A program made the translations under genes and the position numbers. A DNA stretch of 40,196 nucleotides from an uncultured Pseudobdellovibrionaceae bacterium (lineage in GTDB: Bacteria > Pseudomonadota > Alphaproteobacteria > UBA2400), in the NCBI GenBank assembly GCA_964429685.1, contig CAYSDE010000001.1, forward strand, positions 6,293 to 46,488, written 5' to 3'. Below the pieces are notes generated by a model. It ran no database searches, was not told where the DNA came from, and saw only the letters and a list, made by a program, of their open reading frames with translations. Shown here piece by piece: positions 17,269 to 40,045 of this stretch (positions are counted from its first letter, which is position 1; every line of letters begins with the position of its first letter).

Positions 17269-17343
17269 GGGCGGTTAGCTCAGCGGGAGAGCACCTGCTT
17301 CACACGCAGGGGGTCGCTGGTTCGATCCCAGCACCGCCCACCA
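17269..17343 (+). tRNA. tRNA-Val (anticodon CAC)
   Basis: Hand-folded cloverleaf. Acceptor GGGCGGT/ACCGCCC, D arm GCTC-AGCGGGA-GAGC, anticodon arm CCTGC-TTCACAC-GCAGG, variable loop GGGTC, T arm GCTGG-TTCGATC-CCAGC, discriminator A and an encoded CCA. Confidence 0.95.
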
Positions 17344-24974: not shown

Positions 24975-25042
24975 AGTCAGGGAGTTTCAAGCGAATGAGA
25001 ATCGCATCTCCTTCGTCGTAAACTCTGTTTGCTACCTTCTTT

Positions 25043-25170
25043 CACTCTCCTTCCCCCGCTTGCGGGGGAAGGTCTGGATGGGGGGAGAGTGGTGAATTGA
25101 GTCAGAAAATTCGGTGTTTTCTCAACATCCCTCCCCCACCCTAACCCTCCCCCGCAAGCGGGGGAGGGGA
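25043..25170. repeat. pair of inverted G/C-rich palindromic repeats (REP-like) between convergent genes
   Basis: Copy A core is CCTTCCCCCGC-tt-GCGGGGGAAGG (25049-25072) followed by tctggatggggggagag. Copy B core is CCCTCCCCCGC-aa-GCGGGGGAGGG (25145-25168) preceded by tccctcccccaccctaa. B is essentially the reverse complement of A, and a third copy lies at 13651-13690. Confidence 0.8.
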
Positions 25171-25196
25171 TTATCGGCTACTATGTATGGCTGCTA

Positions 25197-25991: not shown

Positions 25992-26071
25992 TTCAAAATC
26001 TCCCTGAAAACTTCGGGTCATTTATACCACACAGCGCTCAAGAAAATCAAAAACTTTCACCAAGTCATTGG

Positions 26072-27206
26072 TTAAACTGGAATATCCTCAACCCCCACAC
26101 TATCCTCGCCACTGATGCGGTGAGCCAGCGCGGCGGCGAGGAAGGCGTCGATTTCGCCGTCCAGTACGCCGCTGGTGTTGCTGGTTTCAACGCCGGTGCG
26201 GAGATCCTTGACCATCTGATAGGGTTGCAGCACGTAAGAGCGGATCTGGTGGCCCCAGCCGATGTCGCTCTTGTTGGCTTCAATCACCCCGGCCCGGGCT
26301 TCGCGCTTGCGCATTTCCAACTCATAAAGCTTGGCTTTGAGCATGGCGGTGGCCTTGGCGCGGTTCTGATGCTGGGAACGCTCCTGCTGACAGGCCACCA
26401 CAATGCCGGTCGGCATATGGGTCATGCGCACGGCTGAATCAGTTTTGTTGACGTGCTGGCCCCCAGCCCCGGAGGAGCGGTAGGTATCCACGCGCACATC
26501 CTTGTCTAGTACCTCAATCTCAATCGTCTCATCCAGCACCGGCGAAACGCTGACGGCGGTGAAGCTGGTATGGCGGCGAGCGTTGGAGTCAAACGGGCTG
26601 ATCCGCACCAAGCGATGCACTCCGGCCTCGGTTTTGAGCCAGCCATAGGCATTTTCGCCGCTGATCTGGATGGTTGCCGATTTAAGGCCAGCTTCTTCGC
26701 CCGGACTTTCATCCAGCCATGTCACCTTGAATTTGCGTTTCTCAGCCCAGCGCAGATACATGCGGGTGAGCATCTGGGCCCAGTCCTGCGCTTCGGTGCC
26801 ACCGGCCCCGGCATTGATTTCAAGATAGCAGTCATTGCCATCGACTTCGCCCGACAACAGGCTTTCCAGTTCGCGCTGACCGGCCTCGGCCTTGATGGCG
26901 AAGATGGCATTCTCGGCTTCGCCCACCATAGCGGCGTCTTTTTCAGCTTCAGCCATTTCGAGCAGTTCAAGCGAATCCTTCAACTGCCGCTCAATCACGC
27001 GGTAGCCGTTGACGGCTTTGTCCAGCTGGGTTCGCTCGCGCATCATTTTCTGCGCTTTGGCGCTGTCATTCCAGATGGCGGGATCTTCGGTAAGGGCATT
27101 CAACTCTTCAAGACGACGTGTGGCCTTGTCGAAGTCAAAGATGCCTCCTCAGCAGACCCAGCGACTTCTGAATGTCGCTGACTGCTGAAATAATTTCTGC
27201 GCGCAT
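26072..27206 (-). CDS. prfB: peptide chain release factor 2, made by programmed +1 frameshift (segments 27206..27138 and 27136..26072)
   Basis: The ATG at 27206 opens a 23-codon frame, [23 protein letters not shown], that stops at CTT-TGA-C. Shifting +1 gives [22 protein letters not shown]..., which joins track ORF 26072..27103. This parallels E. coli RF2 ...LRGYL/DYDAKKERLEEVNAEL. The SPF and GGQ motifs ([11 protein letters not shown]) are present. Confidence 0.95.
27134..27149 (-). promoter_or_regulatory. prfB: prfB +1 frameshift cassette (internal Shine-Dalgarno AGGAGG + CTT TGA C slippery/stop site)
   Basis: The minus strand reads AGGAGG-cat-CTT-TGA-C. AGGAGG is at 27144-27149, CTT at 27138-27140 and TGA at 27135-27137. 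Confidence 0.9.
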
Positions 27207-27259
27207 GAACCAAACTCCCTTTCAATCGGGGCGCACCATAACCAGACAACCGGCAAAAA

Positions 27260-29803
27260 TCAATAAATCTCGCCGAAGCCGCCCCCTGCCCCGTTATTGG
27301 CCGGTTCCGGTGGCGGCAGATAGCTCGGCAGACTGCCATTCCCGTTATTAACCGCTGGTGGCGCGGCCCCTGTGCTGGTTGGCATGCGGATGATTTCGGT
27401 ATTTGCACCCGTCCAGTCCAGCGCGGGATCAACCGCCTGTTCAACGGCACCGGGGCGTGGCTCGGTGCCGGGTTTGTAGGCTTCCCAAATGGCTTTTTCG
27501 TCACCCGGATCGGCCAGCCGTCCATTTGCCGGATTGACGCGAACCAGACGCAGCCCCGGTGGCACCCGGAACTGAATTGGCGGCGTGCCCGCCAAGGCTT
27601 CCTCCATGAAGGATTTGAAGACAGGCGCACTCAGAATACCGCCTGTCATATGATGACCAAGATGGGTCGGCTGGTCGAAGCCGATATAAAGACCAACCGC
27701 CATATCTGAGGAAAAGCCGACAAACCAAGCGTCCCGCTCTTCATTGGTAGTGCCGGTTTTGCCCGCCACCGGCCACGGCAGACCTTTGGCCCGGGTGCCG
27801 GTACCGCGCTGAACCACACCTTCCAGAATATGGGTCATCTGATAGGCGGTGCGCGGATCGATGATCTGGGGGCGGGTATCAGGAACGGTTGGTACCGATA
27901 AATCGGGACGCCACATCACATTCTGGCAGCCCTGACAGGGACGATCATCATGACGATAGAGAATATGACCTTCCTTGTCCTGCACGGTATCAATCAGGGT
28001 GGGCGTAACTTTACGCGCCCCGTTGACGATCTCGGCATAGGCGCTGACCTGCCGCAGCACGGTTGTTTCACCAGCGCCGAGCGCCATCGACAGGTTATGC
28101 GGCAAGCGGTCAACCACACCGAAGGCCTCGGCAATCTTGGCGACATTGGCAATACCGACCTGCTGGGCAAGGCGCACCGTCATGACATTGCGGGACTTTT
28201 CCATCCCCACCCGCAACGTGGTGGGCCCCAGATAGTCATTGGAATAATTTCCGGGTGTCCAGGCAGGCATACCGGGACCTTGGGGCAAACTGATGGGCGC
28301 ATCCAGCACCAGACTAGACGGAGTAAATCCGGCCTCCAGCGCCGCCATATAAACAAACGGCTTGAAGGATGAGCCGGGTTGACGCCATGCTTGGGTGGCT
28401 CGATTAAAGGAACTCATGCGCGGACTGAACCCGCCCACCATCGCCAGCACGCGGCCAGTATTGGCGTCCATCGCCACAAAACCGCCCTGCACCGCCGGAA
28501 TCTGGCGCAAACCGTATTTGTTGTCCCCCTCAATCTTCTCAACCAGAATAATGTCTCCGACCTGCAATACATCCTGCGGTTTGGTGATTTCCGGGCCCAG
28601 AGACGGGCCGGGCTTCCATGTGCGCGCCCATTTCAGTTCCGCCAGAGGAATTATACCCTTGGCATCATTGCGCAGAAGAATTTCGGCCATTGACGCTGAA
28701 ATATCGGTCACCACCGCCAGTTGCCAGAGCTCGCCCCCGCCGGGCATGGGGGTACGCTGAAGCGCCGTCTTCAAATCCTGCCCGCCGCCGATACGCGCCA
28801 CCGGGCCGCGCCAGCCATGCTCCCGATCATAGCTGATGAGCTTCTGACGCAAAGATTTTGTCGCAATATCCTGCAGGCGCGGATCAATGCTTGCCCGCAC
28901 CAGCAGCCCGCCGGTCAGCACCTTCTCCTCGCCGAAACGGGCGACCAGTTCGCGCCGGACTTCTTCGGTGAAATAATCGCCGCCGCGATAGAACTCTTCC
29001 TCGCCGCGGGGCCGCATCTGGATCGGATCGGTGATGGCATGGTCATATTCGGCCTGTGTGATCTTGCCGTCTTCGCGCATACGATTCAACACATAATTGC
29101 GGCGGCTGATGGCCTCATCATGATTTTTGACCGGGTGATAACTGTTAGGCGCTTTCGGCAAGGCGGCCAGATAAGCGGCTTCAGCAATCGTCAGTTCATC
29201 CAGCGTCTTGTTGAAATAAGCCAGCGCCGCTGATCCCACGCCGTAAGCACGCTGACCCAGAAAAATCTGGTTGAGATACAACTCCAGAATCTCATCCTTG
29301 GTGAAAGCTTCCTCAATACGGAACGCAATCAGTGCTTCACGGATCTTGCGGACATAACTGGTTTCGTTGCCGACCAGAAAATTCTTGGCGACCTGCTGGG
29401 TAATGGTCGAAGCGCCGACCGGGTGACGACCGCTCCCCATATTCTCGAAATTGGTAATGGCCGCGCCCAGAATGCCGCGAGGGTCAATACCGGCATGTTC
29501 GTAAAAGGTTTTGTCTTCCGATGAAAGGAAGGCGTCAATAACGCGCTGGGGCATACGGTTGACCGGCACGAAGACGCGGCGCTCCGAAGCAAACTCGGCC
29601 ATCAGGCGACCATCTCCGGCATGAACGCGGCTGACCACCGGCGGGTTGTAATCGCGCAAACTGCTGATGTCGGGCAGATTCTCGCCATAATGCCGGATGA
29701 CCAGCATGACAACGCAAATGCCGACGATACCCAGCAACATGGCTGAAGAAATAGCCCAAGAAATGAAACGCAGCACACCCAGCTCCTTGTAATGACCGGT
29801 CAT
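27260..29803 (-). CDS. mrcA: penicillin-binding protein 1A (bifunctional transglycosylase/transpeptidase)
   Basis: 847-aa ORF with an N-terminal TM anchor. Motifs: glycosyltransferase SSEDKTFYEHAGID, transpeptidase SSFKP (SxxK), and KTGTTNE. Confidence 0.95.
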   Translation of the reverse strand: MTGHYKELGVLRFISWAISSAMLLGIVGICVVMLVIRHYGENLPDISSLRDYNPPVVSRVHAGDGRLMAEFASERRVFVPVNRMPQRVIDAFLSSEDKTFYEHAGIDPRGILGAAITNFENMGSGRHPVGASTITQQVAKNFLVGNETSYVRKIREALIAFRIEEAFTKDEILELYLNQIFLGQRAYGVGSAALAYFNKTLDELTIAEAAYLAALPKAPNSYHPVKNHDEAISRRNYVLNRMREDGKITQAEYDHAITDPIQMRPRGEEEFYRGGDYFTEEVRRELVARFGEEKVLTGGLLVRASIDPRLQDIATKSLRQKLISYDREHGWRGPVARIGGGQDLKTALQRTPMPGGGELWQLAVVTDISASMAEILLRNDAKGIIPLAELKWARTWKPGPSLGPEITKPQDVLQVGDIILVEKIEGDNKYGLRQIPAVQGGFVAMDANTGRVLAMVGGFSPRMSSFNRATQAWRQPGSSFKPFVYMAALEAGFTPSSLVLDAPISLPQGPGMPAWTPGNYSNDYLGPTTLRVGMEKSRNVMTVRLAQQVGIANVAKIAEAFGVVDRLPHNLSMALGAGETTVLRQVSAYAEIVNGARKVTPTLIDTVQDKEGHILYRHDDRPCQGCQNVMWRPDLSVPTVPDTRPQIIDPRTAYQMTHILEGVVQRGTGTRAKGLPWPVAGKTGTTNEERDAWFVGFSSDMAVGLYIGFDQPTHLGHHMTGGILSAPVFKSFMEEALAGTPPIQFRVPPGLRLVRVNPANGRLADPGDEKAIWEAYKPGTEPRPGAVEQAVDPALDWTGANTEIIRMPTSTGAAPPAVNNGNGSLPSYLPPPEPANNGAGGGFGEIY

Positions 29804-29826
29804 AATAGGGATTTGCCGTAAAAAAG

Positions 29827-31122
29827 CTACTCCGGCTTTGCCATGATCAACTGCGCTTCAAAGGTCGAGCTGTGGCGAAGGAAATATTTCTGGATTGCCC
29901 GCTCAATACCGGCAACCAGCTTGCGTTGATGCTCGGGTTTGACCAGTAACCTAGCTTCGCTGCGGTTAGAGAGATAACCCATTTCAATCAGGGCCGAAGG
30001 CATATCCGGCGCCTTAAGAACGGCAAATCCGGCAGAGCGCTGGGGCCGCTCGGTCATCCGCACCTGCCGACCCAGTTCGGTGGCCAGTTGGGTCGAAAAA
30101 TCACGGCTGTTGTTCAGGCTGGCGGTATAGCTCATGGTGGTGAGCAGACTGGCGAGGCCATCATCACCGGCTACCGCCTCAAGTCCGGCCAGCTGGTCAG
30201 AGCGGTTTTCGCTTTCGGCCAAGCGGGCAGCTTCACGATCCGAGGCCCGCTCGGACAAGGTATAGATGGTCGATCCCTGCGCTTCATGGGTTTCAGCACT
30301 GTCGGCATGAAGCGAGATGAAGAGGTCAGCGCCCTGCCGTCTGGCAATCGCTACCCGCTCCTGCAGGGGGATGAAAATATCCCGCGAGCGGGTCAGGGAG
30401 ACACGATAATTGCCACTGCTCTCCAGCTTGGCAGCAAGCTGACGGGCCACAGCCAGCGTAATGTCTTTCTCCCGCGTCCCGTTAATGCCGATGGCGCCGG
30501 GGTCAACCCCGCCATGACCGGCATCCAGCACAATCAGCGGGCGCGGATCAAAATCCCGCCGCCGCTCCGGCAGGGGCGGCGGACGCAGCCCGCCCGCACC
30601 AGCTGTCGTGGCGCTGACCGGTGTTGCAGCAGCTGTCTCATCCTTGGTTACGATGGCGGAAGGGGCGCTGGCCATCGCCAAAGTCTGCTGACCCCGCTGC
30701 CCCCAGCTGCGGCCAATCAGCTGGCGGAATTCGTCCCCGCTGGCCGCCTTCAGATCAATAGCCAGACGCGGCCCCTTGCCGTCCCGAGCCGGAAGATCAA
30801 TAACAGCGGAGAGGCTAACGGCTGCCGTTAGGTCAAGAACAATACGGGTACCCTCGCCAAACTGGCCATAACGCCACCCCTTGACCAGAGCGACCCCATT
30901 CGGGGTCTGCCCCTGAGGCCAGTTCAGGCTCGGCATGTCCAGAACCAGCCGCTCGGGATTGGCGAGAAAGAACATCCGGTAATCGGCAGGACTACCCAAT
31001 TCCAGCACAAAGCGGGTCACCCCGGCTTCAGGCGAACCAAGGCGCACGCTTTTAACCTCAATCTCGGCCAAGGCCGGGAGAGTAAAGAGGGTTATCAGAA
31101 GATAAACGAACAGGCGCAGCAT
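29827..31122 (-). CDS. N-acetylmuramoyl-L-alanine amidase (AMIN domain + Amidase_3, AmiC-like)
   Basis: 431-aa ORF with a signal peptide. The AMIN-like N-terminus is VKSVRLGSPEAGVTRFVLEL...RLVLDMP. The C-terminal part is IVLDAGHGGVDPGAIG...ISLHADS...GFAVLK. Confidence 0.9.
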   Translation of the reverse strand: MLRLFVYLLITLFTLPALAEIEVKSVRLGSPEAGVTRFVLELGSPADYRMFFLANPERLVLDMPSLNWPQGQTPNGVALVKGWRYGQFGEGTRIVLDLTAAVSLSAVIDLPARDGKGPRLAIDLKAASGDEFRQLIGRSWGQRGQQTLAMASAPSAIVTKDETAAATPVSATTAGAGGLRPPPLPERRRDFDPRPLIVLDAGHGGVDPGAIGINGTREKDITLAVARQLAAKLESSGNYRVSLTRSRDIFIPLQERVAIARRQGADLFISLHADSAETHEAQGSTIYTLSERASDREAARLAESENRSDQLAGLEAVAGDDGLASLLTTMSYTASLNNSRDFSTQLATELGRQVRMTERPQRSAGFAVLKAPDMPSALIEMGYLSNRSEARLLVKPEHQRKLVAGIERAIQKYFLRHSSTFEAQLIMAKPE

Positions 31123-31451
31123 TTTGCAAGTATATCATGAGACGACTCATCCAAACAGGGGCCTTAAAACTTTGTATTGTGCCGGGGCGGCAGACAGTCT
31201 ATGGTGTTGCCGCGACCCGTTACCCCCTAGGGCTTATCTCCTGCGGCGGTGGCGGCAAAGAAACACGAAAGCCAACCGACGCTTTGTCTGCGCGGTGGAC
31301 TGTGGGGATAAGGTGTCCTGGCTGCCTTTGGCGCTGCTTCTGATGCTTTTCCTCCTCATGGCCACGGTTTTCCACAAAACGCGACACAATATCTGCCCTT
31401 GCGGTCGCCAAGGGACAGGTCAGATGGCGCGATGAAAGGTCAGGCCCCCTT

Positions 31452-34205
31452 ATGGCCAAGCGTATGTTGATTGATGCTACCCAGCCGGAAGAAACGCGGG
31501 TAACAGTTATTGATGGCAACCGTCTCGACGAACTCGATTTTGAGATTGCCTCACGGAAACAGCTCAAAGGCAATATCTATCTGGCCAAGGTGACGCGGGT
31601 TGAACCGTCTCTGCAGGCTGCCTTTGTTGATTACGGTGGTAACCGCCACGGCTTTCTGGCCTTTGCCGAAATCCATCCCGACTATTACAAGATTCCGGTC
31701 GCTGACCGCGAAAAGCTGCTGGCGCTTGAAGCCGAGCTTGAGCGGGAGGACGCCGAGCGCGAAGAGGCCGAGGAAGCCGCCGCGCTGGCTGCCGTTGTTG
31801 AAACCCCTGAGCTTGTTTCGGAAGAAGGAACGCCCCTTTCCGTCTCTGACCTTGAGCCGCTTGTGCCAAGCGCCGAAGAAGCTGGCAGCAGCCTGACCAG
31901 TCTGGCCACCGAGCCAGACTCGGTCATCCCCGCCGCCGTTGACCAGCCCGAGTTGATCAGCACCCCGGTTTCTGAAGCCGAGAGTGAGGAAGAATCTGAA
32001 AGCACAGACGGTGAAGTTGCGTCAGCTCCCGCTCCGGCACCGACAGCCGAAGAAAGCGAAGATGATGCCGAACGCCGCCGCTTCTCCCGCCGCCGTGCTG
32101 CCATTCTGCGCCAGTATAAAATTCAGGAAGTCATCAAGAAAAACCAGATCCTCCTGATTCAGGTGGTCAAGGAAGAGCGCGGCAACAAAGGCGCAGCGCT
32201 GACCACTTATCTCTCCCTCGCTGGCCGCTATTGCGTGCTGATGCCCAACACCAACCGGGGCGGTGGCGTCTCGCGCAAGATCAGTTCGCTGGAAGAACGC
32301 CGCCGCATGAAGATGCTGCTGTCGGAACTGTCCCTGCCGGACGGAATGTCGATCATTCTGCGGACCGCCGGACTGGAACGCAGCAAGGCTGACATCAAGC
32401 GCGATCTGGAATATCTGCTGCGCCTGTGGGACAGCATCCGCGAAAAGACCCTCAATTCAACTGCCCCATCCCTCATTCATGAAGAAGCCAACCTGATCCG
32501 CCGCGCCATTCGTGATCTCTATTCGCGGGACGTGACCGAAGTACAGGTTGAAGGCGATACCGGCTATCACACCGCCAAGGAATTCATGCGCATGATGGTG
32601 CCGTCGGCAGCGCGCCGCGTCCACCACTACCGCGATCCGGCCGTGCCGCTGTTCATCCGTCACCGGGTGGAAAGCCAGATTGAATCCCTTTACAGCACCA
32701 CAGTCGGCCTCAAATCCGGCGGCTATATCGTCATCAACCAGACGGAAGCGCTGGTTGCCATTGACGTCAATTCGGGCCGATCCACCCGCGAGCGCAATAT
32801 TGAAGAAACCGCGCTGCGCACCAACATTGAAGCCGCCGATGAAGTGGCCCGCCAGCTCCGTCTGCGCGATCTGGCCGGTCTGATCGTTATCGACTTCATC
32901 GATATGGAAGATTCCCGCCATAACGGTCAGGTTGAACGCCGCATGCGCGAGGCGATGAAGAATGATCGTGCCCGCATCCAGATTGGCCGCATTTCGATGT
33001 TCGGCCTGCTCGAGCTGTCACGCCAGCGCCTGCGCCCATCGCTGATTGAAACCAATTTCAGCCCCTGTTCTACCTGCGGCGGCCTTGGCCATGTCCGCAG
33101 TATTGAAAGCGCCGCCTTGCATATTCTTCGCTCCATTGAGGAGGAAGGTCTGCAACAGAAAGCCAGCGAGTTGGCGGTGCGGGTGGCTGAAGAAGCCGCG
33201 CTTTATCTGCTCAACCACAAGCGCGCTGCCCTCGGCGATGTCGAGCGCCGCTATGGCATCAAGGTTTTCATCAACGCCGATACCGAGTTGAAGATTTCCG
33301 AACACAAGATCGAGCGCCTCAAGGCCCGCCAGCCCGGTGAGTTCCAGTTCCCTGAACCGCCGCCGCCGATTGTCGAAGAAGATCCGATTATTGAAGAAGA
33401 AACGCCGGTGGATGACTGGGGTTCACCAGACGATGCCGGCAATGAAAACTCGCCGGAAGAAAACAACAAAGGCTCTGCACAGTCGGATGAGTCTGAAGGC
33501 AGCGAACGCCGGGGCCGTCGTCGTCGTGGCGGACGCAACCGCAGCCGCAGTGGCCGCCCGGCTGGCGCCTATCCTGACGTGTCCCAACCCGGTGCGCCGC
33601 AACCGGAAATTCCGTTGCTGGGCGATGGGGAAGAACTACAACCCGCCAACCTGCCCTCGCCCGAAGATCAACTCGGCTATGTCTCCATGACCATGCACAG
33701 CCCTGCCGAAGGCGCCGAAACCGCTGAAAGCCAGCGCCGCCGTCGTGGCCGCCGGGGTGGCCGTGGCCGCTATCGGGGCGGCGAAGGTCGGGGCGATCAG
33801 CCCCAGCCGGATGGCAACATCGCTGAAGCGCCAGCACCCGCAGAAGGTCAACCGGCCGAAGCCCGCGAACCGCGCAAACCCCGTGAAGACCGCCCCCGCG
33901 AAGACCGGCCCCAACGCCACCCGCGTGGTGATCGTCCGCAACGCCAGCCCCGTGAACAGGGCGGAGAACGTGGTGGGGAGAGGGGCGACCGTCAGCCGCG
34001 CTACAATTCAACTCCGCCGGGTGGCTCCGCGCCCAGCGATGGCGGAATCCGCATTGTCACCGCCATCCGGGGCCGCGACGATCCCAAGCCCGCCTCGGCT
34101 ACCAGCCCGGCTCCTGCCCCCGCCGTCACGGCACAGCCCCCCGCGCCCCCCTCCCCCCCGGACAAACCGAAATCAGGCTGGTGGAAGCGACTGATCGGGA
34201 ACTGA
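31452..34205 (+). CDS. rne: ribonuclease E
   Basis: 917-aa ORF. MAKRMLIDATQPEETRVTVIDGNRLDELDFE...GNIYLAKVTRVEPSLQAAFVDYG forms the S1 domain. An acidic insert follows, then the catalytic core (IDVNSG, CxxCxG zinc link) and a long Arg/Pro/Glu-rich scaffold tail ending ...PDKPKSGWWKRLIGN. Confidence 0.95.
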   Translation: MAKRMLIDATQPEETRVTVIDGNRLDELDFEIASRKQLKGNIYLAKVTRVEPSLQAAFVDYGGNRHGFLAFAEIHPDYYKIPVADREKLLALEAELEREDAEREEAEEAAALAAVVETPELVSEEGTPLSVSDLEPLVPSAEEAGSSLTSLATEPDSVIPAAVDQPELISTPVSEAESEEESESTDGEVASAPAPAPTAEESEDDAERRRFSRRRAAILRQYKIQEVIKKNQILLIQVVKEERGNKGAALTTYLSLAGRYCVLMPNTNRGGGVSRKISSLEERRRMKMLLSELSLPDGMSIILRTAGLERSKADIKRDLEYLLRLWDSIREKTLNSTAPSLIHEEANLIRRAIRDLYSRDVTEVQVEGDTGYHTAKEFMRMMVPSAARRVHHYRDPAVPLFIRHRVESQIESLYSTTVGLKSGGYIVINQTEALVAIDVNSGRSTRERNIEETALRTNIEAADEVARQLRLRDLAGLIVIDFIDMEDSRHNGQVERRMREAMKNDRARIQIGRISMFGLLELSRQRLRPSLIETNFSPCSTCGGLGHVRSIESAALHILRSIEEEGLQQKASELAVRVAEEAALYLLNHKRAALGDVERRYGIKVFINADTELKISEHKIERLKARQPGEFQFPEPPPPIVEEDPIIEEETPVDDWGSPDDAGNENSPEENNKGSAQSDESEGSERRGRRRRGGRNRSRSGRPAGAYPDVSQPGAPQPEIPLLGDGEELQPANLPSPEDQLGYVSMTMHSPAEGAETAESQRRRRGRRGGRGRYRGGEGRGDQPQPDGNIAEAPAPAEGQPAEAREPRKPREDRPREDRPQRHPRGDRPQRQPREQGGERGGERGDRQPRYNSTPPGGSAPSDGGIRIVTAIRGRDDPKPASATSPAPAPAVTAQPPAPPSPPDKPKSGWWKRLIGN

Positions 34206-34208
34206 TGA

Positions 34209-34763
34209 ATGATCCGGATTCTTTTCGAGGCGCATGCAACATCTTATGACAACGAAGCTGCATTAAGCTCAGGTCATAACGATGTTGCGCTTTCTCCGTT
34301 GGGACTGGAACAGGCTGCCGGATTAGGTAAGCGCCTTGCACCAGTTCCTGTTACAGCGGGTTACTGCTCTGACCTCCAGCGGTCTTATTTGACGGGTGAA
34401 ATTGCGTTCAAGGAACGTCACATTCCTGTTTTCCGGGACAGCAGGCTACGCGAGTGTGATTATGGCGATTTGACTCAAGCTCCTGCGGATAAAGTGAAGG
34501 CACTTCGAGCGAACCATGTCGATATTCCCTTTCCACATGGAGAGAGCTATACGCAAACCTGTCTAAGAATGAAATCGTTTCTCGATGAAATTGCCGTCAC
34601 GTACAAGAGCGCTGACACCATTGTTATTATCGGCCACCGGGCAACACAATACGGACTTGAACACTGGTTGAAAAACGTTCCTGTGCTGGAAGCAGTTACG
34701 GCACCGTGGACATGGCAACCCGGCTGGTTATATGACATCGCCCCCGCAACGCCTGTAACGTAG
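34209..34763 (+). CDS. histidine phosphatase (phosphoglycerate mutase-like) family protein with non-canonical active-site motif
   Basis: 184-aa ORF starting 3 nt after the rne stop (TGA-TGA-ATG). ILFEAHATSYDN...SPLGLEQA...RLRECDYGD...VIIGHRATQ aligns by eye to the RHGxT...E.D.G...SHGG layout of branch-1 histidine phosphatases. It is visibly more AT-rich than rne. Confidence 0.75.
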   Translation: MIRILFEAHATSYDNEAALSSGHNDVALSPLGLEQAAGLGKRLAPVPVTAGYCSDLQRSYLTGEIAFKERHIPVFRDSRLRECDYGDLTQAPADKVKALRANHVDIPFPHGESYTQTCLRMKSFLDEIAVTYKSADTIVIIGHRATQYGLEHWLKNVPVLEAVTAPWTWQPGWLYDIAPATPVT

Positions 34764-34913
34764 CCGGATCAACACCCGCGACACTCTGCTCCGGTGGCGG
34801 CTCCGTCATCCCCCCCACCCCAGCCCGCTGCTACCAGCACAGCCCCTTCGCCCGTGCCCCCGACAACCCCGGACAAACCGAAATCCGGCTGGTGGAAGCG
34901 GCTTATTGGTTGA
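34764..34913 (+). pseudogene. rne: displaced duplicate of the rne 3' end (RNase E C-terminal tail remnant)
   Basis: In the same frame as rne and the phosphatase, it reads PDQHPRHSAPVAAPSSPPPQPAATSTAPSPVPPTTPDKPKSGWWKRLIG-TGA. The last 14 codons (34869-34910) give the same amino acids as rne codons 34158-34199, with 5 synonymous nt differences. There is no start codon of its own. Confidence 0.7.
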
Positions 34914-35003
34914 TCTAGCGGATTGTACTTGCTTTCGATGCTGCGCGTTTTGTAGAACATCTAGACATTCGTTCAAAAACGCAATCTATGGGGGTCAATA
35001 CCA

Positions 35004-35384
35004 ATGGAAAATCGCAATATAGTTAGCATCGCCTTTGCAGCAGTCTTGGCTCTAACAGGGGAGGGAGTTCATGCGGAAAATACCCTAGAAAAACCATCCA
35101 CTTCTACTAAGGTCATTTATCCGGACCTCGAGAGCAACACCTACCACCAGGTTCTCCCCGGTATGTTTTGTTATTCAAAGGGGGGATGCAATACGACAAG
35201 ACGCGTTGTTGATTGCACTCTGGGTACCTTGCACCATGAAATGGTAATAGGAACAAGAATTGCTCAGGGTGGTGATAACATGATCCAGCCGACAGCCCCC
35301 ATCAGCGTCACGTCGCTCTCTCCGAAGGCACAGGAGACAATCCGTCGTAACTGCAGCAGCAACGGTCTGCAGGCTCTTTTTTAA
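35004..35384 (+). CDS. small secreted hypothetical protein (4 Cys)
   Basis: 126-aa ORF with the signal peptide MENRNIVSIAFAAVLALTGEGVHA. Composition is AT-rich and no family is recognised. Confidence 0.55.
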   Translation: MENRNIVSIAFAAVLALTGEGVHAENTLEKPSTSTKVIYPDLESNTYHQVLPGMFCYSKGGCNTTRRVVDCTLGTLHHEMVIGTRIAQGGDNMIQPTAPISVTSLSPKAQETIRRNCSSNGLQALF

Positions 35385-35449
35385 ACCAGTAGTCCTCCGC
35401 GACAAATCAGGCCACGCAGAAAAGTTTTTTTTCTGCTAGCCTTGGCGTT

Positions 35450-36793
35450 ATGCACCGTTTTCTGATCGCCGTCGTAACGCTCCTTCTGTTCGTCTTGCCT
35501 GCTGCCGCCCAGAACCGGCCACAGGACATGAACCTGATCCGCGATGCCGAGATTGAGCAGATTTTGCGGGATTTTGCGGCGCCGATTTTTACACAGGCTG
35601 GTATTCCGCCCGCCAATGTCCATTTCGTTCTGGTCAACAGTCCCGAGGTCAATGCTTTTGTTGCGGGCGGAATGAACATGTTCATCACCACCGGCCTGAT
35701 GCGCATGGCCAGAACGCCCGAAGAGCTGATCGGGGTTATGGCCCATGAAACCGGGCATATTGCGGGCGGGCATCTGGTGCGCTCGCAGGAGGCCATAGAG
35801 AACGCCTCAACCTCGGCCATCATTGCGACGATTGCCGGCATTGCCGCCGCTGCCGCCAGCCGCGATGGCAGCACCGGCGCCGCTGCCATCTCACTCGGCC
35901 AGCAGGTCGCCCAGCGCAACTTCCTCAGCTACAGCCGCACACAGGAGTCTTCGGCGGATCAGGCGGCGCTGGGTTTTCTTGACCGCGCCCATATCAGCGC
36001 CGCCGGAATGCGCGACTTCCTGAAACGGCTGGGCGATCAGGAACTGTTGCCTGAAGACCAGCAAATCCAGTTTGTCCGCACCCACCCGCTCACCAGTGAC
36101 CGGATTGATGCTGTTGCTGCCCATGTTACCGCCGCCCGCCCGGCAACGCCACTACCTGCCAGTTACAGCGAGCGCTTTGCCCGTCTGCAAGCCAAGCTGG
36201 AAGGCTTTATTGATCCACGTCTGGCCCTGCACCACTACCCGCCCACCGAAACCGGTTTTGCCGGTCGTTATGCCCGCTCCATTGCCCTCCATCAAACCGG
36301 CGATACCAAGGGAGCGCTGGCGCTGGCCGAAAACTTGCTGAAAACCGAACCCAATAACGCCTATCTGCACGAGTTGAAGGGCCAAATTCTGTATGAAACC
36401 GGTCAGGCCGCTGCTGCCATTCCCGAATATCGCAGTGCGATCAGCCTTGCCGAGGGTAACGGTTTGCTGCGTATCGGTCTGGCGCAAGCCCTGCTCGACA
36501 GTGGCACCTCCAGCAACCTGACTGAAGCCCAGACCCAACTGGAAGCCGCCGCCAGCAGCGAGCGCAAATCCCCGTCCCTCTGGCGTCTGCTTGCCACTGC
36601 CTATGGTCGCCAGAACCAGCTTGGCATGGCCGCTTATGCCCTCTCCGAAGAAGCGCTGGCCAGCGGGAATAAAGCTGTTGCCAAGCAACAAGCCAGCCGC
36701 GCTCAGGAGATTCTTCCGCACGGCTCGGCAGGCTGGGTCAAGGCCGGGGATGTGCTGGCCGTAGCCAGCGAGAAAGACCGCGACAGCAGATAA
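35450..36793 (+). CDS. M48 family zinc metalloprotease with C-terminal TPR repeats (BepA/YfgC-like)
   Basis: 447-aa ORF with a signal peptide. It carries the HExxH motif in VMAHETGHIAGGH and a TPR-like C-terminal half (ALALAENLLKTEPNNAYLHELKGQILYETGQ...). Confidence 0.9.
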   Translation: MHRFLIAVVTLLLFVLPAAAQNRPQDMNLIRDAEIEQILRDFAAPIFTQAGIPPANVHFVLVNSPEVNAFVAGGMNMFITTGLMRMARTPEELIGVMAHETGHIAGGHLVRSQEAIENASTSAIIATIAGIAAAAASRDGSTGAAAISLGQQVAQRNFLSYSRTQESSADQAALGFLDRAHISAAGMRDFLKRLGDQELLPEDQQIQFVRTHPLTSDRIDAVAAHVTAARPATPLPASYSERFARLQAKLEGFIDPRLALHHYPPTETGFAGRYARSIALHQTGDTKGALALAENLLKTEPNNAYLHELKGQILYETGQAAAAIPEYRSAISLAEGNGLLRIGLAQALLDSGTSSNLTEAQTQLEAAASSERKSPSLWRLLATAYGRQNQLGMAAYALSEEALASGNKAVAKQQASRAQEILPHGSAGWVKAGDVLAVASEKDRDSR

Positions 36794-36874
36794 ACCAAAA
36801 AAATGCAGTCGTGGTCTTGTTAATCTTTGCATTTCAAGGCAAAGTGCCACTCTCACTTCTGGAGGGAACTGTTA

Positions 36875-37654
36875 ATGATGATCCGTTGTTTCATGGTAGT
36901 CGCTTTGAGTGTTCTGAGCGCCTTTCCCGCGCTGGCCGGGACTACGTCTGCCGCGCCGCCGTCGGCATCCTCCAGCTTCACGGATGCCCAGAAGCAGGAA
37001 ATTCAGGCGATCATCAAGGATTATCTGGTGAGTAACCCCGCAGTAATGCAGGAATCGATTGAAGCCCTGCAGAAACACATGCAGTCAGAGCAGTCCCGCA
37101 AAATGGAAGGCGCCGTGCGTGATAATCTGGACAAACTCCAGAATACCGCTGGTCTGCCGGTGGCGGGCAACCCACAGGGTGATGTCACGGTTGTGGAATT
37201 CTTTGACTATAACTGCGGCTACTGCAAATCCGTAAACGCCGAAGTTAAAGCGCTGTTGGCCGAGGACAAGAACATCCGTCTGGTTCACCGCGAATATCCC
37301 ATTCTCTCTCAGGTTTCCAAAACTGCAGCTGAGGCTGCCCTTGCTGCCAATCTGCAGGGCAAATATCTCCAGATGCATGATCAGCTGATGGGCTATGCTG
37401 ATCACCTCAGCGAGGAAGATGTTTACCGTATCGCCGGTGAAGTTGGCCTTGACGTCACCCGGCTGCGCACGGACATGCAGTCTGCCGCCATTCAGGCTGA
37501 AATTGCCAGCACCCGCGCTCTGGCTGATGCCATCAGCATTCGGGGTACACCGGCCTTTGTAATTGGCACGAATCTTTACCCCGGCGCGCTGGATAAGAGC
37601 GGCCTCGTTGCAGCTGTTGCCCGGGCCCGCGCCGAGAAGTCCGCCCCGCGCTGA
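36875..37654 (+). CDS. DsbA-family periplasmic thiol:disulfide oxidoreductase
   Basis: From ORF 36827..37654. I prefer the ATG at 36875 (MMIRCFMVVALSVLSAFPALAG), preceded by GGAGGGA. The CxxC active site is FFDYNCGYCK. Confidence 0.9.
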   Translation: MMIRCFMVVALSVLSAFPALAGTTSAAPPSASSSFTDAQKQEIQAIIKDYLVSNPAVMQESIEALQKHMQSEQSRKMEGAVRDNLDKLQNTAGLPVAGNPQGDVTVVEFFDYNCGYCKSVNAEVKALLAEDKNIRLVHREYPILSQVSKTAAEAALAANLQGKYLQMHDQLMGYADHLSEEDVYRIAGEVGLDVTRLRTDMQSAAIQAEIASTRALADAISIRGTPAFVIGTNLYPGALDKSGLVAAVARARAEKSAPR

Positions 37655-37679
37655 ACGTGAACAGAGACAGAACATCAAC

Positions 37680-37723
37680 CTGCCGCTAGGTGACACAAAA
37701 CACCTAGCGGCAGCTGTTGTGTT
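37680..37723 (+). terminator. rho-independent terminator candidate after the DsbA-like gene
   Basis: A perfect 13-bp stem pairs CTGCCGCTAGGTG (37680-37692) with CACCTAGCGGCAG (37701-37713), with an 8-nt loop. It is followed by ctgttgtgtt. Confidence 0.65.
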
Positions 37724-37775
37724 AAAGGCCGAAATTGGCTAACACTGTCGCCCTGAGCTTTAACCAACTGTAGCA

Positions 37776-38234
37776 GTGACCTTGACCATTCAACCCAGCC
37801 CCCTCTTCATCCTTACCGGCCCCAACCTGAACCTGCTTGGCCTCAGAGAGCCGGAGGTTTATGGCGTCGATACGCTGGCTGATATTGAATCGGCCTGCCG
37901 TGACCATGCGCAGGAGCTGGGATTCGAAATCGTATTCCGCCAGACCAACCACGAAGGTGAGTTGGTGAGCTGGATACAGGAAGCGCGCACCGAGGCCGAT
38001 GGCCTCATCCTTAACGCCGCCGCCTATACCCATACTTCGGTGGCGATTCATGATGCCCTGCTGATGCTCGACATTCCGGTGGTTGAAGTCCATCTCAGCA
38101 ATATTTTCAAACGCGAGCCCTTCCGCCATCACTCCTATGTCTCGGGAGCGGCGCTGGGGGTCATCTGCGGGTTTGGTCTTGGCAGCTATGTTCTGGCCAT
38201 TTCTGCGCTCGCACGTCAACTCGGGAAGGAGTAA
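37776..38234 (+). CDS. aroQ: type II 3-dehydroquinate dehydratase
   Basis: 152-aa ORF with a GTG start. Motifs: [19 protein letters not shown]...[11 protein letters not shown]...[12 protein letters not shown]...EVHLSNI. Confidence 0.95.
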
Positions 38235-38240
38235 TCTGGA

Positions 38241-38690
38241 GTGAGCAGTTTCAAGATTGATGAGGAAGCCATCCGCAAGCTGGCGGAGATCCTGAATGAT
38301 ACCGGTCTGACCGAAGTCGAGATTGAGGATAATGGCCGCAGTCTGCGCGTCAGCCGGGGTACAGTGACTACCATGTCCACAGCCCCAATCGGGGCTCCGC
38401 TGGCCATGCAAGGTGGCAGCACTCCCGCCTCTGCCCCCACCAATGATCTGCCCTCCGGCATGCAGGTGACGTCCCCGATGGTCGGGACGGTTTATCTGGC
38501 TGGCGCACCGGGGGCGGCACCGTTTATCAGCCCCGGTGACAGTGTCAAAGAAGGCGATACCCTCCTCATTGTTGAAGCCATGAAGGTCATGAACCCGATC
38601 AAGGCGCCCAAGGGGGGCAAGATTGCCCGTATCGTCGTCAGCGACGCACAGCCGGTTGAGTTTGGCGAAGTGCTGGTCGTGATTACCTGA
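38241..38690 (+). CDS. accB: acetyl-CoA carboxylase biotin carboxyl carrier protein
   Basis: 149-aa ORF with a GTG start. It has an Ala/Pro-rich linker and the biotinylation motif LIVEAMKVMNPI. Confidence 0.95.
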   Translation: MSSFKIDEEAIRKLAEILNDTGLTEVEIEDNGRSLRVSRGTVTTMSTAPIGAPLAMQGGSTPASAPTNDLPSGMQVTSPMVGTVYLAGAPGAAPFISPGDSVKEGDTLLIVEAMKVMNPIKAPKGGKIARIVVSDAQPVEFGEVLVVIT

Positions 38691-38704
38691 ACGGATCACA
38701 CATC

Positions 38705-40045
38705 ATGATGTTCGATAAAATCCTCGTCGCCAACCGTGGTGAGATTGCCCTGCGGATCATGCGCGCCTGCAAGGAAATGGGCATTGCCACCGTTGCCGTA
38801 CATTCAACCGCCGATGCCGAAGCCATGCATGTGCGTCTGGCTGATGAAAGCGTTTGTATCGGCCCGCCGCCAGCGCGGGACAGCTATCTGAACATCCCCG
38901 CCATTCTCGAAGCCGCCGCCATTACCGGCGCAGATGCCATTCATCCCGGCATTGGCTTCATGTCCGAGAACGAGAACTTTGCCCGCATGGTCGAAGAACA
39001 TGGCTTCACCTGGATTGGTCCGACGCCTGACCACATCAACCAGATGGGCGACAAGGTAACGGCCAAGGATACGGTCAAGAAATTCGGGCTGCCGCTGGTG
39101 CCCGGTTCGCCCGGCCCGGTCGCCACGCTGGAAGACGCCAAGACCTACGCCAAAGATATTGGCTATCCTGTCCTCATCAAGGCGGCCTCGGGCGGCGGCG
39201 GCAAAGGCATGAAAGTCGCACTCAACGAAAGCCAGATTGAAGAGTCCTACAGCCTCGCCCGCATCGAAGCCAAGGCCGCCTTTGGGGACGATACGGTGTA
39301 TATGGAAAAATACCTCACCCATCCGCGCCACATCGAAATCCAGCTGCTGGGCGATATGCATGGCAATGCCGTGCATTTTGGCGAGCGTGACTGTTCCATC
39401 CAGCGCCGCCACCAGAAAGTAGTGGAAGAAGCCCCCTCCCCCGCCCTCAATGCCGAAGAGCGGGACTATATCGGTAACCTCGCCGCCGACTGCATCAAGA
39501 AGCTTGGCTATCGCGGCGTCGGCACGATGGAATTCCTCTATGAAGATGGCAAGTTCTACTTCATCGAAATGAATACCCGCCTGCAGATCGAACACACCAT
39601 CACCGAGATGATTACCGGCATTGATCTGGTGCGCGAACAGATCCGCGTCGCCACCGGTGCGCCCCTCCCCTTCAAGCAGGCAGACATCAAATTCAACGGT
39701 GTTTCGATTGAATGCCGCATTAACGCCGAAAATCCGGAAACCTTCATTCCCTCTCCGGGCAAAATCGTTGGCTACCACGCCCCCGGCGGCCTCGGCGTGC
39801 GGGTGGATAGCGCCTTGTTTGACGGCTACCGCGTCCCCTCCAACTATGACAGCATGATCGCCAAGCTCATCGTCCACGGCACCAGCCGCAACGAATGCCT
39901 GATGCGCCTGCGCCGCTGCCTTGACGAGTTTGTCATCGGCGGCATTGAAACCACCATCCCGCTGCACAAAAAGATTCTGGCCCAGCCCGACTTCATCAAC
40001 GGCGAGTATGATAATCGCTGGCTGGAGAAGATGCTGGCGAAGTAG
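38705..40045 (+). CDS. accC: acetyl-CoA carboxylase biotin carboxylase subunit
   Basis: 446-aa ORF. MFDKILVANRGEIALRIMRACKEMGI..., an ATP-grasp region with GGGGKGM, and EMNTRLQVEH-type IEMNTRLQIEHTITE. Confidence 0.97.
   Translation: MMFDKILVANRGEIALRIMRACKEMGIATVAVHSTADAEAMHVRLADESVCIGPPPARDSYLNIPAILEAAAITGADAIHPGIGFMSENENFARMVEEHGFTWIGPTPDHINQMGDKVTAKDTVKKFGLPLVPGSPGPVATLEDAKTYAKDIGYPVLIKAASGGGGKGMKVALNESQIEESYSLARIEAKAAFGDDTVYMEKYLTHPRHIEIQLLGDMHGNAVHFGERDCSIQRRHQKVVEEAPSPALNAEERDYIGNLAADCIKKLGYRGVGTMEFLYEDGKFYFIEMNTRLQIEHTITEMITGIDLVREQIRVATGAPLPFKQADIKFNGVSIECRINAENPETFIPSPGKIVGYHAPGGLGVRVDSALFDGYRVPSNYDSMIAKLIVHGTSRNECLMRLRRCLDEFVIGGIETTIPLHKKILAQPDFINGEYDNRWLEKMLAK

What the first reader, a model, noticed from the sequence alone, without database searches (positions are those of the whole stretch)
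34098..34913. AT-richer gene inserted in frame into the 3' end of rne, bracketed by two copies of the RNase E C-terminal GWW tail
rne ends ...PDKPKSGWWKRLIGN-TGA, with tail codons at 34158-34199 and the stop at 34203-34205. A second TGA follows, then immediately the ATG (34209) of a 184-aa histidine-phosphatase-family gene that looks clearly more AT-rich than rne. Directly after that gene's TAG (34761-34763), in the same reading frame, the sequence reads PDQHPRHSAPVAAPSSPPPQPAATSTAPSPVPPTTPDKPKSGWWKRLIG-TGA (34764-34913). That is a second copy of the Pro/Ala-rich end of RNase E. Over the last 14 codons the two copies differ at 5 of 42 nt (tca/tcc, cga/cgg, ctg/ctt, atc/att, ggg/ggt), and all 5 differences are synonymous. 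Further upstream only gct-acc-agc and Pro/Ala-rich similarity remain, with a 7-codon length difference. Purely synonymous divergence implies both tails evolved as real coding sequence. One explanation is an inserted segment that carried its own replacement 3' end for its target gene, as integrative elements do at tRNA genes and some protein-gene 3' ends. Another is import of a foreign rne end by recombination. Either way the displaced native end would remain as a remnant. No integrase or recombinase is left. To my recollection, a C-terminal GWW peptide is the PNPase docking site of Caulobacter RNase E, which would explain pressure to regenerate this tail. Because the phosphatase ORF and the remnant share a frame, TAG readthrough would fuse a GWW tail to the phosphatase; that is speculative.
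Basis: partly seen in the sequence, partly recalled or inferred. Interest (0 to 1): 0.7.

Follow-up and report, generated by a model that had tools for sequence, protein, structure and literature searches.

The report
Recombination scar: displaced RNase E tail
The second "GWW tail" is the leftover last 41 codons of a different strain-type's RNase E gene, stranded behind a small acquired phosphatase gene by an off-register recombination between two versions of this locus; it is an ordinary evolutionary scar, not a mobile element or a new coding device.

Summary
An AT-richer histidine-phosphatase gene follows at 34209-34763. A second ...PDKPKSGWWKRLIG-TGA lies at 34869-34913, with 5 of 42 nt different, all synonymous.

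The headline interpretation does not hold.
- Close relatives show two versions of the rne-to-M48-peptidase interval.
- Type A has an rne tail ending GN*, followed directly by a conserved spacer element, either without the phosphatase (L084) or with it (L085, L001, L122). None has a second tail.
- Type B has an rne tail ending ...PVAAPSSPPPQPAATSTAPSPVPPTTPDKPKSGWWKRLIG*, then a small orphan secreted-protein gene (ORF126), and no phosphatase (L096, L121, P0148).
- The phosphatase cassette (34206-34775, 570 nt) sits after the intact rne stop, not inside rne.
- Window 34789-34959 is 98-99% identical to the functional type-B rne end plus its spacer.
- The join at 34789/34790 fuses 14 nt of type-A spacer to the inside of a type-B rne tail.

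The window is therefore a type-A-plus-phosphatase / type-B recombinant with one illegitimate junction. The synonymous-only divergence arose while the two tails were functional alleles in separate lineages. Interest is low.

The parts
31452..34205 (+). rne (RNase E, 917 aa) with a type-A C-terminal end ...PDKPKSGWWKRLIGN*
   Evidence: ORF. Pfam RNase_E_G E 1.8e-98. The tail is 99% identical to L085 and is of the same type as the phosphatase-free L084 and the outgroup L123 (GN* ending).
34158..34205 (+). Functional GWW tail (tail 1) and stop. This is the predicted PNPase-docking peptide.
   Evidence: A GWW C-terminus is found in nearly all of 80 alphaproteobacterial rne loci. GWW peptide binding to PNPase was shown for Caulobacter (PMC3376730).
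34206..34775 (+). 570-nt phosphatase cassette. It is present in type-A1 relatives and absent from L084. It holds the gene 34209-34763.
   Evidence: Boundaries come from L084 versus L085 and the window. The only close relatives are the 6 members of its 90% cluster. The next-best homologues are 65% identical or less.
34209..34763 (+). Histidine-phosphatase-superfamily gene (184 aa), GC 0.505. Probably co-transcribed with rne.
   Evidence: Pfam His_Phos_1 E 1.4e-26. It falls below every NCBIfam equivalog cut-off. Subfamily-invariant residues H9, R58, E82 and H143 are intact.
34776..34789 (+). 14 nt (CCGCGACACTCTGC) of the ancestral type-A intergenic element that normally precedes M48.
   Evidence: It follows the rne stop directly in L084 and follows the cassette in L085, L001 and L122. 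It is also conserved in the spacer of outgroup L123.
34789..34790 (.). Illegitimate recombination junction between the type-A spacer and the interior of a type-B rne tail.
   Evidence: Homology with L085 ends at 34789. Homology with L096 and L121 starts at 34789. The same junction appears in three other independent assemblies, L087-L089.
34789..34913 (+). Displaced 3' end of a type-B rne allele (last 41 codons plus TGA). It is a young pseudogene fragment.
   Evidence: Over 34789-34959 (171 nt) there are 2 differences to L096 and 3 to L121. The encoded peptide is identical to the functional tails of L121 and P0148.
34914..35003 (+). Type-B spacer that follows rne in type-B genomes.
   Evidence: Nearly identical to L096 and L121 (one difference to L121) up to 34959, then diverges.
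35004..35384 (+). ORF126, a small signal-peptide-bearing orphan protein. It is part of the type-B haplotype.
   Evidence: Only 6 clusters are found in 5.8 billion proteins, all from this clade. It has a conserved C-terminal half and two invariant Cys. It lies between rne and M48 in L096, L121 and L086.
35385..35506 (+). Type-B version of the conserved M48-upstream element, plus the type-B M48 signal-peptide codons. This is the right end of the block that differs from type A.
   Evidence: Alignment with L085 resumes at 35507.
35450..36793 (+). M48/TPR peptidase gene. It is the conserved downstream neighbour of rne.
   Evidence: Pfam Peptidase_M48 E 8e-32. M48 lies on the rne locus in 27 of 80 distant relatives and DsbA in 28, and the order rne-M48-DsbA is seen in L084, L085 and L123.

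Best explanation
The locus is a recombinant between two divergent versions (haplotypes) of the rne-to-M48 interval that circulate in a strongly recombining, uncultured alphaproteobacterial lineage.
- The left parent was type A1: an rne with a GN* tail, a 570-nt phosphatase cassette immediately after the stop, then the conserved spacer element CCGCGACACTCTGC....
- The right parent was type B: an rne with a ...PVAAPSS...GWWKRLIG* tail, then ORF126, then an M48 gene with a different signal peptide.

One crossover used ordinary homology, either in rne upstream or in the M48 body downstream. The other was an illegitimate, at most microhomology-guided join, between position 14 of the type-A spacer and a point 41 codons before the end of the type-B rne. 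The mechanism is most likely homology-facilitated illegitimate recombination after DNA uptake from a related strain.

Because the join was out of register, the last 41 codons of the type-B rne were retained behind the phosphatase as a promoterless, start-less fragment. The two tails differ only synonymously because they diverged as functional alleles under purifying selection on the PNPase-docking GWW peptide in separate lineages. They were brought together only recently.

Shown: the anatomy, both parental haplotypes, the junction position and the youth of the remnant. Inferred: the mechanism (HFIR), the direction of transfer and the non-expression of the remnant.
For: - Parental haplotypes exist:
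  - A0 is L084. The rne stop is followed directly by CCGCGACACTCTGC.
  - A1 is L085, L001 and L122. They carry the cassette, the same spacer, no second tail and no ORF126.
  - B0 is L096, L121 and P0148. They have a functional rne ending in the 'tail 2' peptide, then the same spacer and an ORF126 homologue, with no phosphatase.
- The window equals L085 (99-100%) over 33800-34789.
- The window equals L096 and L121 (98.2-98.8%) over 34789-34959.
- Alignment with type A resumes at 35507.
- In the alignment of ten rne ends, the remnant groups with the B0 functional tails and the live tail groups with A1.
- Outgroup L123 (rne 75% identical) shows that CGCGACACTCTGC is ancestral intergenic sequence. 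It continues there as GCCGGTG, which suggests a 7-of-8-nt microhomology with the type-B CTCCGGTG at the join.
- The population is mosaic, with 100%-identity tracts of about 1-2 kb to different relatives along the window.
- L086 holds an independent example. It has the cassette followed, 3 nt after its stop, by an rne fragment that starts at the GDRQPRYNS motif (29/34 nt, 0 of 2000 shuffles). That fragment has two deletions, one of which removes GWW, and it is out of frame.
- The junction is present in four assemblies from different samples.
- HFIR with 3-10 bp microhomology is documented (PMC6382021).
Against: - No sampled type-A haplotype has the outgroup-like GCCGGTG continuation. With the sampled parents, the demonstrable overlap at the join is only 1 nt.
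- The exact type-B parent has not been sampled without the phosphatase. The window's ORF126 allele is only 50-70% identical in protein to the other family members.
- The direction of transfer cannot be decided, because the flanks are mosaic.
- Whether the L086 and window remnants come from one or two events rests on a 26-nt stretch that is too short for a powerful test.
- Competence or any other transfer route is unknown for this organism.
Confidence: 0.8

Rival explanations
1. A site-specific integrative element, now reduced to its cargo, inserted into the rne 3' end and brought a replacement tail, leaving the native tail as attR.
For: The gene is flanked by two direct, partly identical tail copies with a 19-nt identical run. 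The cargo is AT-richer than its surroundings.
Against: - The cassette's left boundary is after the stop codon, and its right boundary lies 14 nt before the remnant begins.
- Three cassette-bearing relatives have no second tail.
- The type-A tail exists without the cassette (L084).
- L001 has the cassette with an L084-like tail variant.
- The remnant continues seamlessly into type-B downstream DNA for about 700 nt.
- There is no integrase among the neighbouring genes.
Confidence: 0.03
2. There was one ancient event. The original acquisition of the phosphatase itself duplicated the rne 3' region (Campbell-type or duplicative insertion). All other haplotypes (A1, A0, perhaps B0) derive from it by deletions or by recombination between the two tails.
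For: - L086 and the window both have cassette + rne fragment + ORF126 + type-B M48.
- Recombination between the direct tail repeats could cleanly delete the cassette and give a B0-like gene (inference).
- The 26 nt after the phosphatase stop can be aligned at about 65-70% to the L086 remnant start by eye.
Against: - That 26-nt similarity is not significant (965 of 2000 shuffles).
- Fourteen of the 26 nt are ancestral intergenic sequence that is also present in the outgroup.
- The window remnant is 98-99% identical to living type-B alleles with no indel or nonsynonymous change. The L086 remnant is heavily decayed. This indicates different ages and different junctions.
Confidence: 0.1
3. The second tail is expressed and functional. 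Either TAG readthrough gives a phosphatase-GWW fusion that docks on PNPase, or a GTG-initiated 39-aa GWW peptide (34794-34913) is made.
For: The remnant is in frame with the phosphatase, with no intervening stop other than TAG. An in-frame GTG sits at 34794. The GWW peptide alone binds PNPase in Caulobacter.
Against: - The frame match has a 1-in-3 prior.
- No Shine-Dalgarno-like sequence lies before the GTG.
- A1 relatives hit a stop 17 codons after TAG.
- The L086 remnant is out of frame and has lost GWW.
- The intactness of the remnant is explained by its youth.
Confidence: 0.03
4. It is an assembly chimera of co-occurring type-A1 and type-B strains.
For: The source looks like a metagenome-derived contig, and both haplotypes circulate in related samples.
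Against: The junction lies where the two parents share no k-mer. The identical junction is found in three further assemblies from different sequencing runs at 99.9% identity.
Confidence: 0.01
5. It is a local tandem duplication of the resident rne 3' end, with the phosphatase captured between the copies.
For: There are two direct copies in the same orientation.
Against: The copies are only about 80% identical over 73 nt and are not alignable upstream. Copy 2 is 98-99% identical to another lineage's functional allele and carries that lineage's downstream DNA.
Confidence: 0.02

Closest known systems
Homology-facilitated illegitimate recombination (HFIR) scars after uptake of DNA from related strains (de Vries & Wackernagel 2002; Prudhomme 2002; Meier & Wackernagel 2003, as cited in PMC6382021)
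   Same: One flank is homologous and the other join has no or very short microhomology. A gene absent from one parent ends up in a new context. A nearby resident sequence is duplicated or displaced.
   Different: The evidence here is comparative only. The transfer route, RecA dependence and direction are not known. The demonstrable microhomology with the sampled parents is 1 nt (7 of 8 nt if the parent resembled the outgroup).
Integrative elements that regenerate the 3' end of their target gene (tRNA/tmRNA-gene and some protein-gene integrases)
   Same: A functional target-gene end lies upstream of the insert, and a displaced partial copy lies downstream.
   Different: There is no integrase. 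The repeats are not at the insert boundaries. The insert occurs without the second copy in relatives. The displaced copy belongs to another allele together with 700 nt of its downstream region.
Alphaproteobacterial RNase E C-terminal GWW PNPase-recognition peptide (Caulobacter crescentus; PMC3376730, PMC3045602)
   Same: Both copies encode a basic-GWW-basic motif at the very C-terminus. The motif is conserved in nearly all of 80 alphaproteobacterial rne loci examined.
   Different: Only tail 1 is attached to RNase E. Tail 2 is a detached fragment. Binding was not tested for this organism.

Membership tests
Site-specific integrative element with target-gene 3'-end regeneration | An integrase or recombinase gene in or beside the insert | tested here: not met
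   The insert is 570 nt with one His_Phos_1 gene. Its neighbours are an amidase, rne, ORF126, M48 and DsbA.
Site-specific integrative element with target-gene 3'-end regeneration | Direct repeats (att core) lie exactly at the two insert boundaries | tested here: not met
   The cassette boundaries are TGA|TGAATG... and ...CAACAC|CCGCGAC, with no repeat. The second tail starts 14 nt beyond the cassette.
Site-specific integrative element with target-gene 3'-end regeneration | Occupied sites always carry both repeat copies, and the empty site carries one | tested here: not met
   L085, L001 and L122 carry the cassette with a single tail.
Illegitimate / homology-facilitated recombination scar between two haplotypes | Both parental arrangements exist independently | tested here: met
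   A1 is L085, L001 and L122. B0 is L096, L121 and P0148.
Illegitimate / homology-facilitated recombination scar between two haplotypes | An abrupt switch of parental identity at a point without extended homology | tested here: met
   The L085 match ends at 34789 and the L096/L121 match begins at 34789.
Illegitimate / homology-facilitated recombination scar between two haplotypes | A homologous anchor on the other side, and evidence that the population recombines | tested here: met
   Sliding-window identity shows 100% tracts to different relatives on both sides.
Illegitimate / homology-facilitated recombination scar between two haplotypes | Short (3-10 bp) microhomology at the illegitimate join | tested here: inconclusive
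   The overlap is 1 nt with the sampled A types. It is 7 of 8 nt if the A parent carried the outgroup-like CGCCGGTG.
Illegitimate / homology-facilitated recombination scar between two haplotypes | RecA-dependent integration of taken-up DNA | not testable with these tools
   This needs genetics in a cultured strain.
RNase E GWW PNPase-recognition peptide | A C-terminal basic-GWW-basic motif on RNase E | tested here: met
   Tail 1 is ...KPKSGWWKRLIGN*. Comparable tails occur in nearly all of 80 relatives.
RNase E GWW PNPase-recognition peptide | Binds PNPase | not testable with these tools
   Shown only for Caulobacter (PMC3376730).
Histidine phosphatase superfamily, branch 1 | Pfam PF00300 match above the gathering score | tested here: met
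   93.8 bits against a cut-off of 21.7.
Histidine phosphatase superfamily, branch 1 | Canonical N-terminal RHG catalytic motif | tested here: inconclusive
   The motif reads F-E-x-H-A/G-T. The His is invariant, but the preceding Arg is absent throughout this subfamily. No NCBIfam equivalog cut-off is reached.

The most novel reading that the evidence does not exclude
The stranded GWW tail is not silent. Low-level TAG readthrough, or initiation at GTG 34794, would yield a GWW-tagged phosphatase or a free 39-aa GWW peptide. Either could dock on, or compete for, the PNPase site used by RNase E and so tune degradosome assembly in strains carrying this recombinant.
Probability: 0.03. Interest if true: 0.6.

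Novelty: new member of a known kind. Interest (0 to 1): 0.22.

Why it matters
The main value is as a correction. It removes a tempting 'integrative element that repairs its target gene' reading. It also shows how synonymous-only divergence between two adjacent copies can arise with neither copy being under selection in its present place.

It is also a clean natural example, with both parents and an outgroup available, of out-of-register recombination between divergent haplotypes. That event moved an accessory gene, the phosphatase, into a new genomic background.

The rne-M48 spacer in this lineage is a small hot spot for lineage-specific genes. The phosphatase sits there in type A and the orphan ORF126 in type B.

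None of this changes understanding of RNase E or of mobile elements.

Tried and rejected
- The genome-contig scan with rne returned only distant relatives (68% identity or less). It served only for tail conservation and synteny.
- The DNA pattern for the tail found nothing in metagenome contigs. The phosphatase scan there gave only relatives at 55% or less.
- The exact look-up of the window phosphatase found no contig. The close relatives came from cluster members instead.
- I considered that 34764-34789 ('PDQHPRHSA') was also rne-derived, from either the DRQPRYNS or the DDPKPATPP region, which would imply a Campbell-type duplication. I rejected this because the similarity is not significant and the outgroup shows that 14 of these nt are ancestral spacer.
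- No Rfam family matched in 30900-35600.
- No sigma-70-like promoter was found, and only one weak terminator-like site inside the remnant, fewer than the shuffles give.
- The post-remnant spacer does not fold better than shuffles.
- Neighbours of the 65%-identical phosphatase homologues (L002, L003) were checked for GWW tails. The upstream ORF there is an unrelated small lipoprotein.


Full report
**1. The observation**

Reading 33700-35300 and listing ORFs confirms the coordinates.
- rne is 31452-34205 (917 aa; Pfam RNase_E_G E 1.8e-98) and ends ...PDKPKSGWWKRLIGN-TGA.
- A second TGA (34206-34208) is followed by the ATG at 34209 of a 184-aa His_Phos_1 protein (E 1.4e-26), which ends at TAG 34761-34763.
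- The same frame then reads PDQHPRHSAPVAAPSSPPPQPAATSTAPSPVPPTTPDKPKSGWWKRLIG-TGA up to 34913.
- The last 14 codons of the two tails differ at 5 of 42 nt with identical peptides.
- The similarity is far beyond chance: local score 47, against a maximum of 27 in 1000 shuffles.
- The phosphatase gene has GC 0.505 and GC3 0.47, against 0.613 and 0.66 for rne and 0.571 for the window. The stretch 34914-35450 is also AT-rich, at 0.48.

So the duplication and the compositional contrast are real.

**2. Finding relatives**

- The species-representative genome scan gave only distant alphaproteobacteria with rne 68% identical or less. The nearest named genera are Azospirillum, Skermanella and Arenibaculum, at about 60-70% over the catalytic part. 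The lineage is an unnamed relative of the Rhodospirillales/Azospirillales.
- Exact-sequence cluster look-ups and contig look-ups recovered close relatives at 90-99.9% nucleotide identity from independent public assemblies.

**3. Haplotypes of the rne-to-M48 interval**

- **A0 (L084).** rne ...GWWKRLIGN-TGA is followed directly by CCGCGACACTCTGCACACGC..., a REP-like hairpin, and M48 with the N-terminus MQFRMRFHLVAL.... There is no phosphatase.
- **A1 (L085, L001, L122).** Identical to A0 except that 570 nt (TGAATG...phosphatase...TAGCCGGATCAACAC) sit between the rne TGA and CCGCGACACTCTGC. There is no second tail and no ORF126.
- **B0 (L096, L121; P0148 for the rne protein).** rne ends ...DDPKPATPPVAAPSSPPPQPAA(T/A)STAPSPVPPTTPDKPKSGWWKRLIG-TGA. 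It is followed by TCTAGCGGATTGTACTTGC..., a 121-125-aa homologue of the window's ORF126, and M48 with the N-terminus MHRFLIAVV.... There is no phosphatase.
- **W (the window, L087, L088, L089; 99.9% identical to one another).** rne(A)-cassette-CCGCGACACTCTG|CTCCGGTGG...type-B tail-type-B spacer-ORF126-type-B M48 start.
- **L086 (about 90% identical).** rne(A-like tail)-cassette-decayed rne fragment-ORF126 homologue-type-B M48.
- **Outgroup L123 (rne 75% identical).** rne ...GWWKRLIGN-TAA, a 200-nt spacer, then M48. It has neither the phosphatase nor ORF126.
- **Distant relatives.** Of the 80 distant rne loci, none has the phosphatase or ORF126. M48 lies on the rne locus in 27 and DsbA in 28. 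Nearly all end in a GWW tail.

**4. Where the pieces come from**

- BLAST of L085 against the window is collinear up to 34789 and resumes at 35507. Between these points the window has 717 nt where L085 has 184 nt.
- Window 34789-34959 (171 nt) differs from L096 at 2 positions and from L121 at 3. The encoded 41-residue peptide is identical to the functional tails of L121 and P0148.
- In a ten-sequence alignment of rne ends, the remnant groups with the B0 tails and the live tail groups with L085 and L122.
- The 14 nt at 34776-34789 are ancestral intergenic DNA. They follow the rne stop in L084. In the outgroup they form part of a conserved element, GCGCGACACTCTGCGCCGGTG...ACAAAAAGCTGCTAGGCT, just upstream of M48. 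The type-B version of that element lies after ORF126 at about 35398-35449.
- The 26 nt after the phosphatase stop show no significant similarity to rne. The remnant therefore starts at 34789, not at 34764.

**5. What this excludes**

- The phosphatase is not inserted into rne. It lies after an intact stop, and the same tail type exists without it in L084 and in the outgroup.
- The cassette does not bring its own tail.
  - L001 carries the cassette with an L084-like Pro/Ala stretch, whereas L085, L122 and the window carry another variant.
  - Three cassette-bearing haplotypes have a single tail.
- There is no recombinase and no boundary repeat. The integrative-element model therefore fails three of its defining features.
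- A local tandem duplication is excluded. Copy 2 is about 80% identical to copy 1 but 98-99% identical to another lineage's living allele, and it is contiguous with that lineage's downstream DNA.
- An assembly chimera is excluded. The junction recurs in four assemblies from different runs, and it lies where the parents share no k-mer.

**6. Best explanation**

Sliding-window identity shows a strongly mosaic population.
- The window is 100% identical to L084 over 31800-33400.
- It is 99-100% identical to L085 over 33800-34789 and over 36800-37400.
- It is 100% identical to L090 around 35600-35800.
- It is only 88-97% identical to every relative in the M48 body.

In such a population, a type-A1 segment and a type-B segment were joined. 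One crossover was homologous, in rne or in the M48 body. The other was illegitimate, at 34789/34790.

The A and B haplotypes are not alignable between the Pro/Ala-rich linker of rne and codon ~20 of M48, apart from the short GWW island. Any event that keeps the phosphatase while adopting type-B downstream DNA therefore needs such a non-homologous join.

With the sampled parents the overlap at the join is 1 nt. If the A parent still had the outgroup-like CGCCGGTG, the join lay in a 7-of-8-nt microhomology with the type-B CTCCGGTG (this is an inference). This pattern fits homology-facilitated illegitimate recombination, which is described for several naturally transformable bacteria and uses 3-10-bp microhomologies (PMC6382021). 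The direction of transfer cannot be decided.

L086 has a second junction of a different kind.
- The cassette's stop is followed after 3 nt by an rne fragment that begins at the GDRQPRYNS motif (29/34 nt identical to rne; 0 of 2000 shuffles reach the score).
- The fragment has an internal deletion, and a 10-nt deletion that destroys GWW.
- It lies in a different frame from the phosphatase.

This looks like an older, probably independent event of the same kind. It shows what becomes of such remnants: they decay.

**7. The synonymous-only divergence**

The GWW peptide is the PNPase-recognition site of Caulobacter RNase E, and it is 'strikingly conserved' in alphaproteobacteria (PMC3376730). The survey agrees. 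Tails A and B diverged as functional alleles under that constraint in separate lineages, so only synonymous changes accumulated in the last 14 codons.

The remnant has no indel, no stop and no nonsynonymous change relative to L121 and P0148. It is therefore young, and its intactness is not evidence of selection in place.

The shared frame with the phosphatase is a 1-in-3 coincidence.
- A1 relatives meet a stop 17 codons after TAG.
- L086 is out of frame.
- No Shine-Dalgarno-like sequence precedes the in-frame GTG at 34794.
- No promoter-like site was found.

**8. The genes themselves**

- **Phosphatase.** It belongs to a well-conserved 175-185-aa subfamily of histidine phosphatases with invariant H9, R58, E82 and H143-R144. 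The subfamily reads FExHAT instead of RHG. It reaches no NCBIfam equivalog cut-off. Outside its own 90% cluster of six, its nearest relatives are 65% identical or less, and some of the named ones come from Patescibacteria-group (candidate phyla radiation) genomes. Together with its GC content, and with its absence from A0, B0, the outgroup and 80 distant loci, this marks it as an acquired accessory gene. Its ATG lies 3 nt after the rne stop, so it is probably co-transcribed with rne (inference).
- **ORF126.** It belongs to an orphan family of six clusters in 5.8 billion proteins. It has a signal-peptide-like N-terminus, a conserved C-terminal half and two invariant Cys.

**9. Verdict**

The title interpretation (in-frame insertion into rne, an element carrying a replacement end) is wrong. 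The feature is a recombination scar of a known kind. Interest is low.

Noticed in passing
window 35004-35384 (also L096 1168-1533, L121 1570-1935, and L086 between its phosphatase and M48 genes): ORF126 is a small signal-peptide-bearing protein in an orphan family: only 6 clusters among 5.8 billion proteins, all from this lineage. The family evolves fast (50-70% identity between strains that are otherwise more than 90% identical). It has a conserved C-terminal half (QPTAPISVTSLSPKAQ..RRNC) and two invariant Cys. It is AT-rich and occupies the rne-M48 spacer only in type-B haplotypes.
   Followed up: partly
window 34141-34146; L087 (Logan SRR9107545): One otherwise identical assembly has an extra C in the C6 run of the rne tail. 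This gives a frameshifted 932-aa RNase E that loses the GWW tail and reads into the phosphatase gene (P0124). It could be a sequencing or assembly error, or a real homopolymer slip.
   Followed up: partly
window 25049-25072 and 25145-25168; type-A spacers in L084, L085, L001, L122, L090: A REP-like G+C-rich palindrome, CCCTCCCCCGCAAGCGGGGGAGGG, occurs as an inverted pair near 25.1 kb in the window (0 matches expected by chance). It also lies just upstream of M48 in type-A haplotypes but not in the window's own rne-M48 spacer. The L085 spacer that contains it folds better than shuffles (z -2.3).
   Followed up: partly
window 25000-40000 versus L084, L085, L086, L090, L096: There is striking mosaicism. 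Tracts of 1-2 kb at 100% identity to one relative alternate with tracts at 85-92%. The M48 body (35800-36400) is 79-95% identical to every relative. This indicates very frequent recombination among co-circulating lineages.
   Followed up: partly
window 34360: The window's phosphatase has Gly50 (GGT) where all five other cluster members have Val (GTT). It is the only difference from L088 and L089 across their whole length.
   Followed up: no
window 34769-34960, minus strand: A 63-aa antisense ORF across the remnant was called as a gene in two public assemblies (L088, L089). It is most likely an artefact of the G+C-rich, stop-poor remnant.
   Followed up: no
L002 3-146 and L003 3403-3525: In the nearest phosphatase homologues outside this lineage (65% identity), the gene sits 5 nt after a 40-aa lipoprotein-like ORF (MRIIMTILTLAVATATLSACNTIEGAGRDLTSLGQTMKGE). 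As here, it is tightly appended to the end of an upstream gene.
   Followed up: no
window 17269-17343: A tRNA-Val(CAC) gene, the only tRNA in the window.
   Followed up: no
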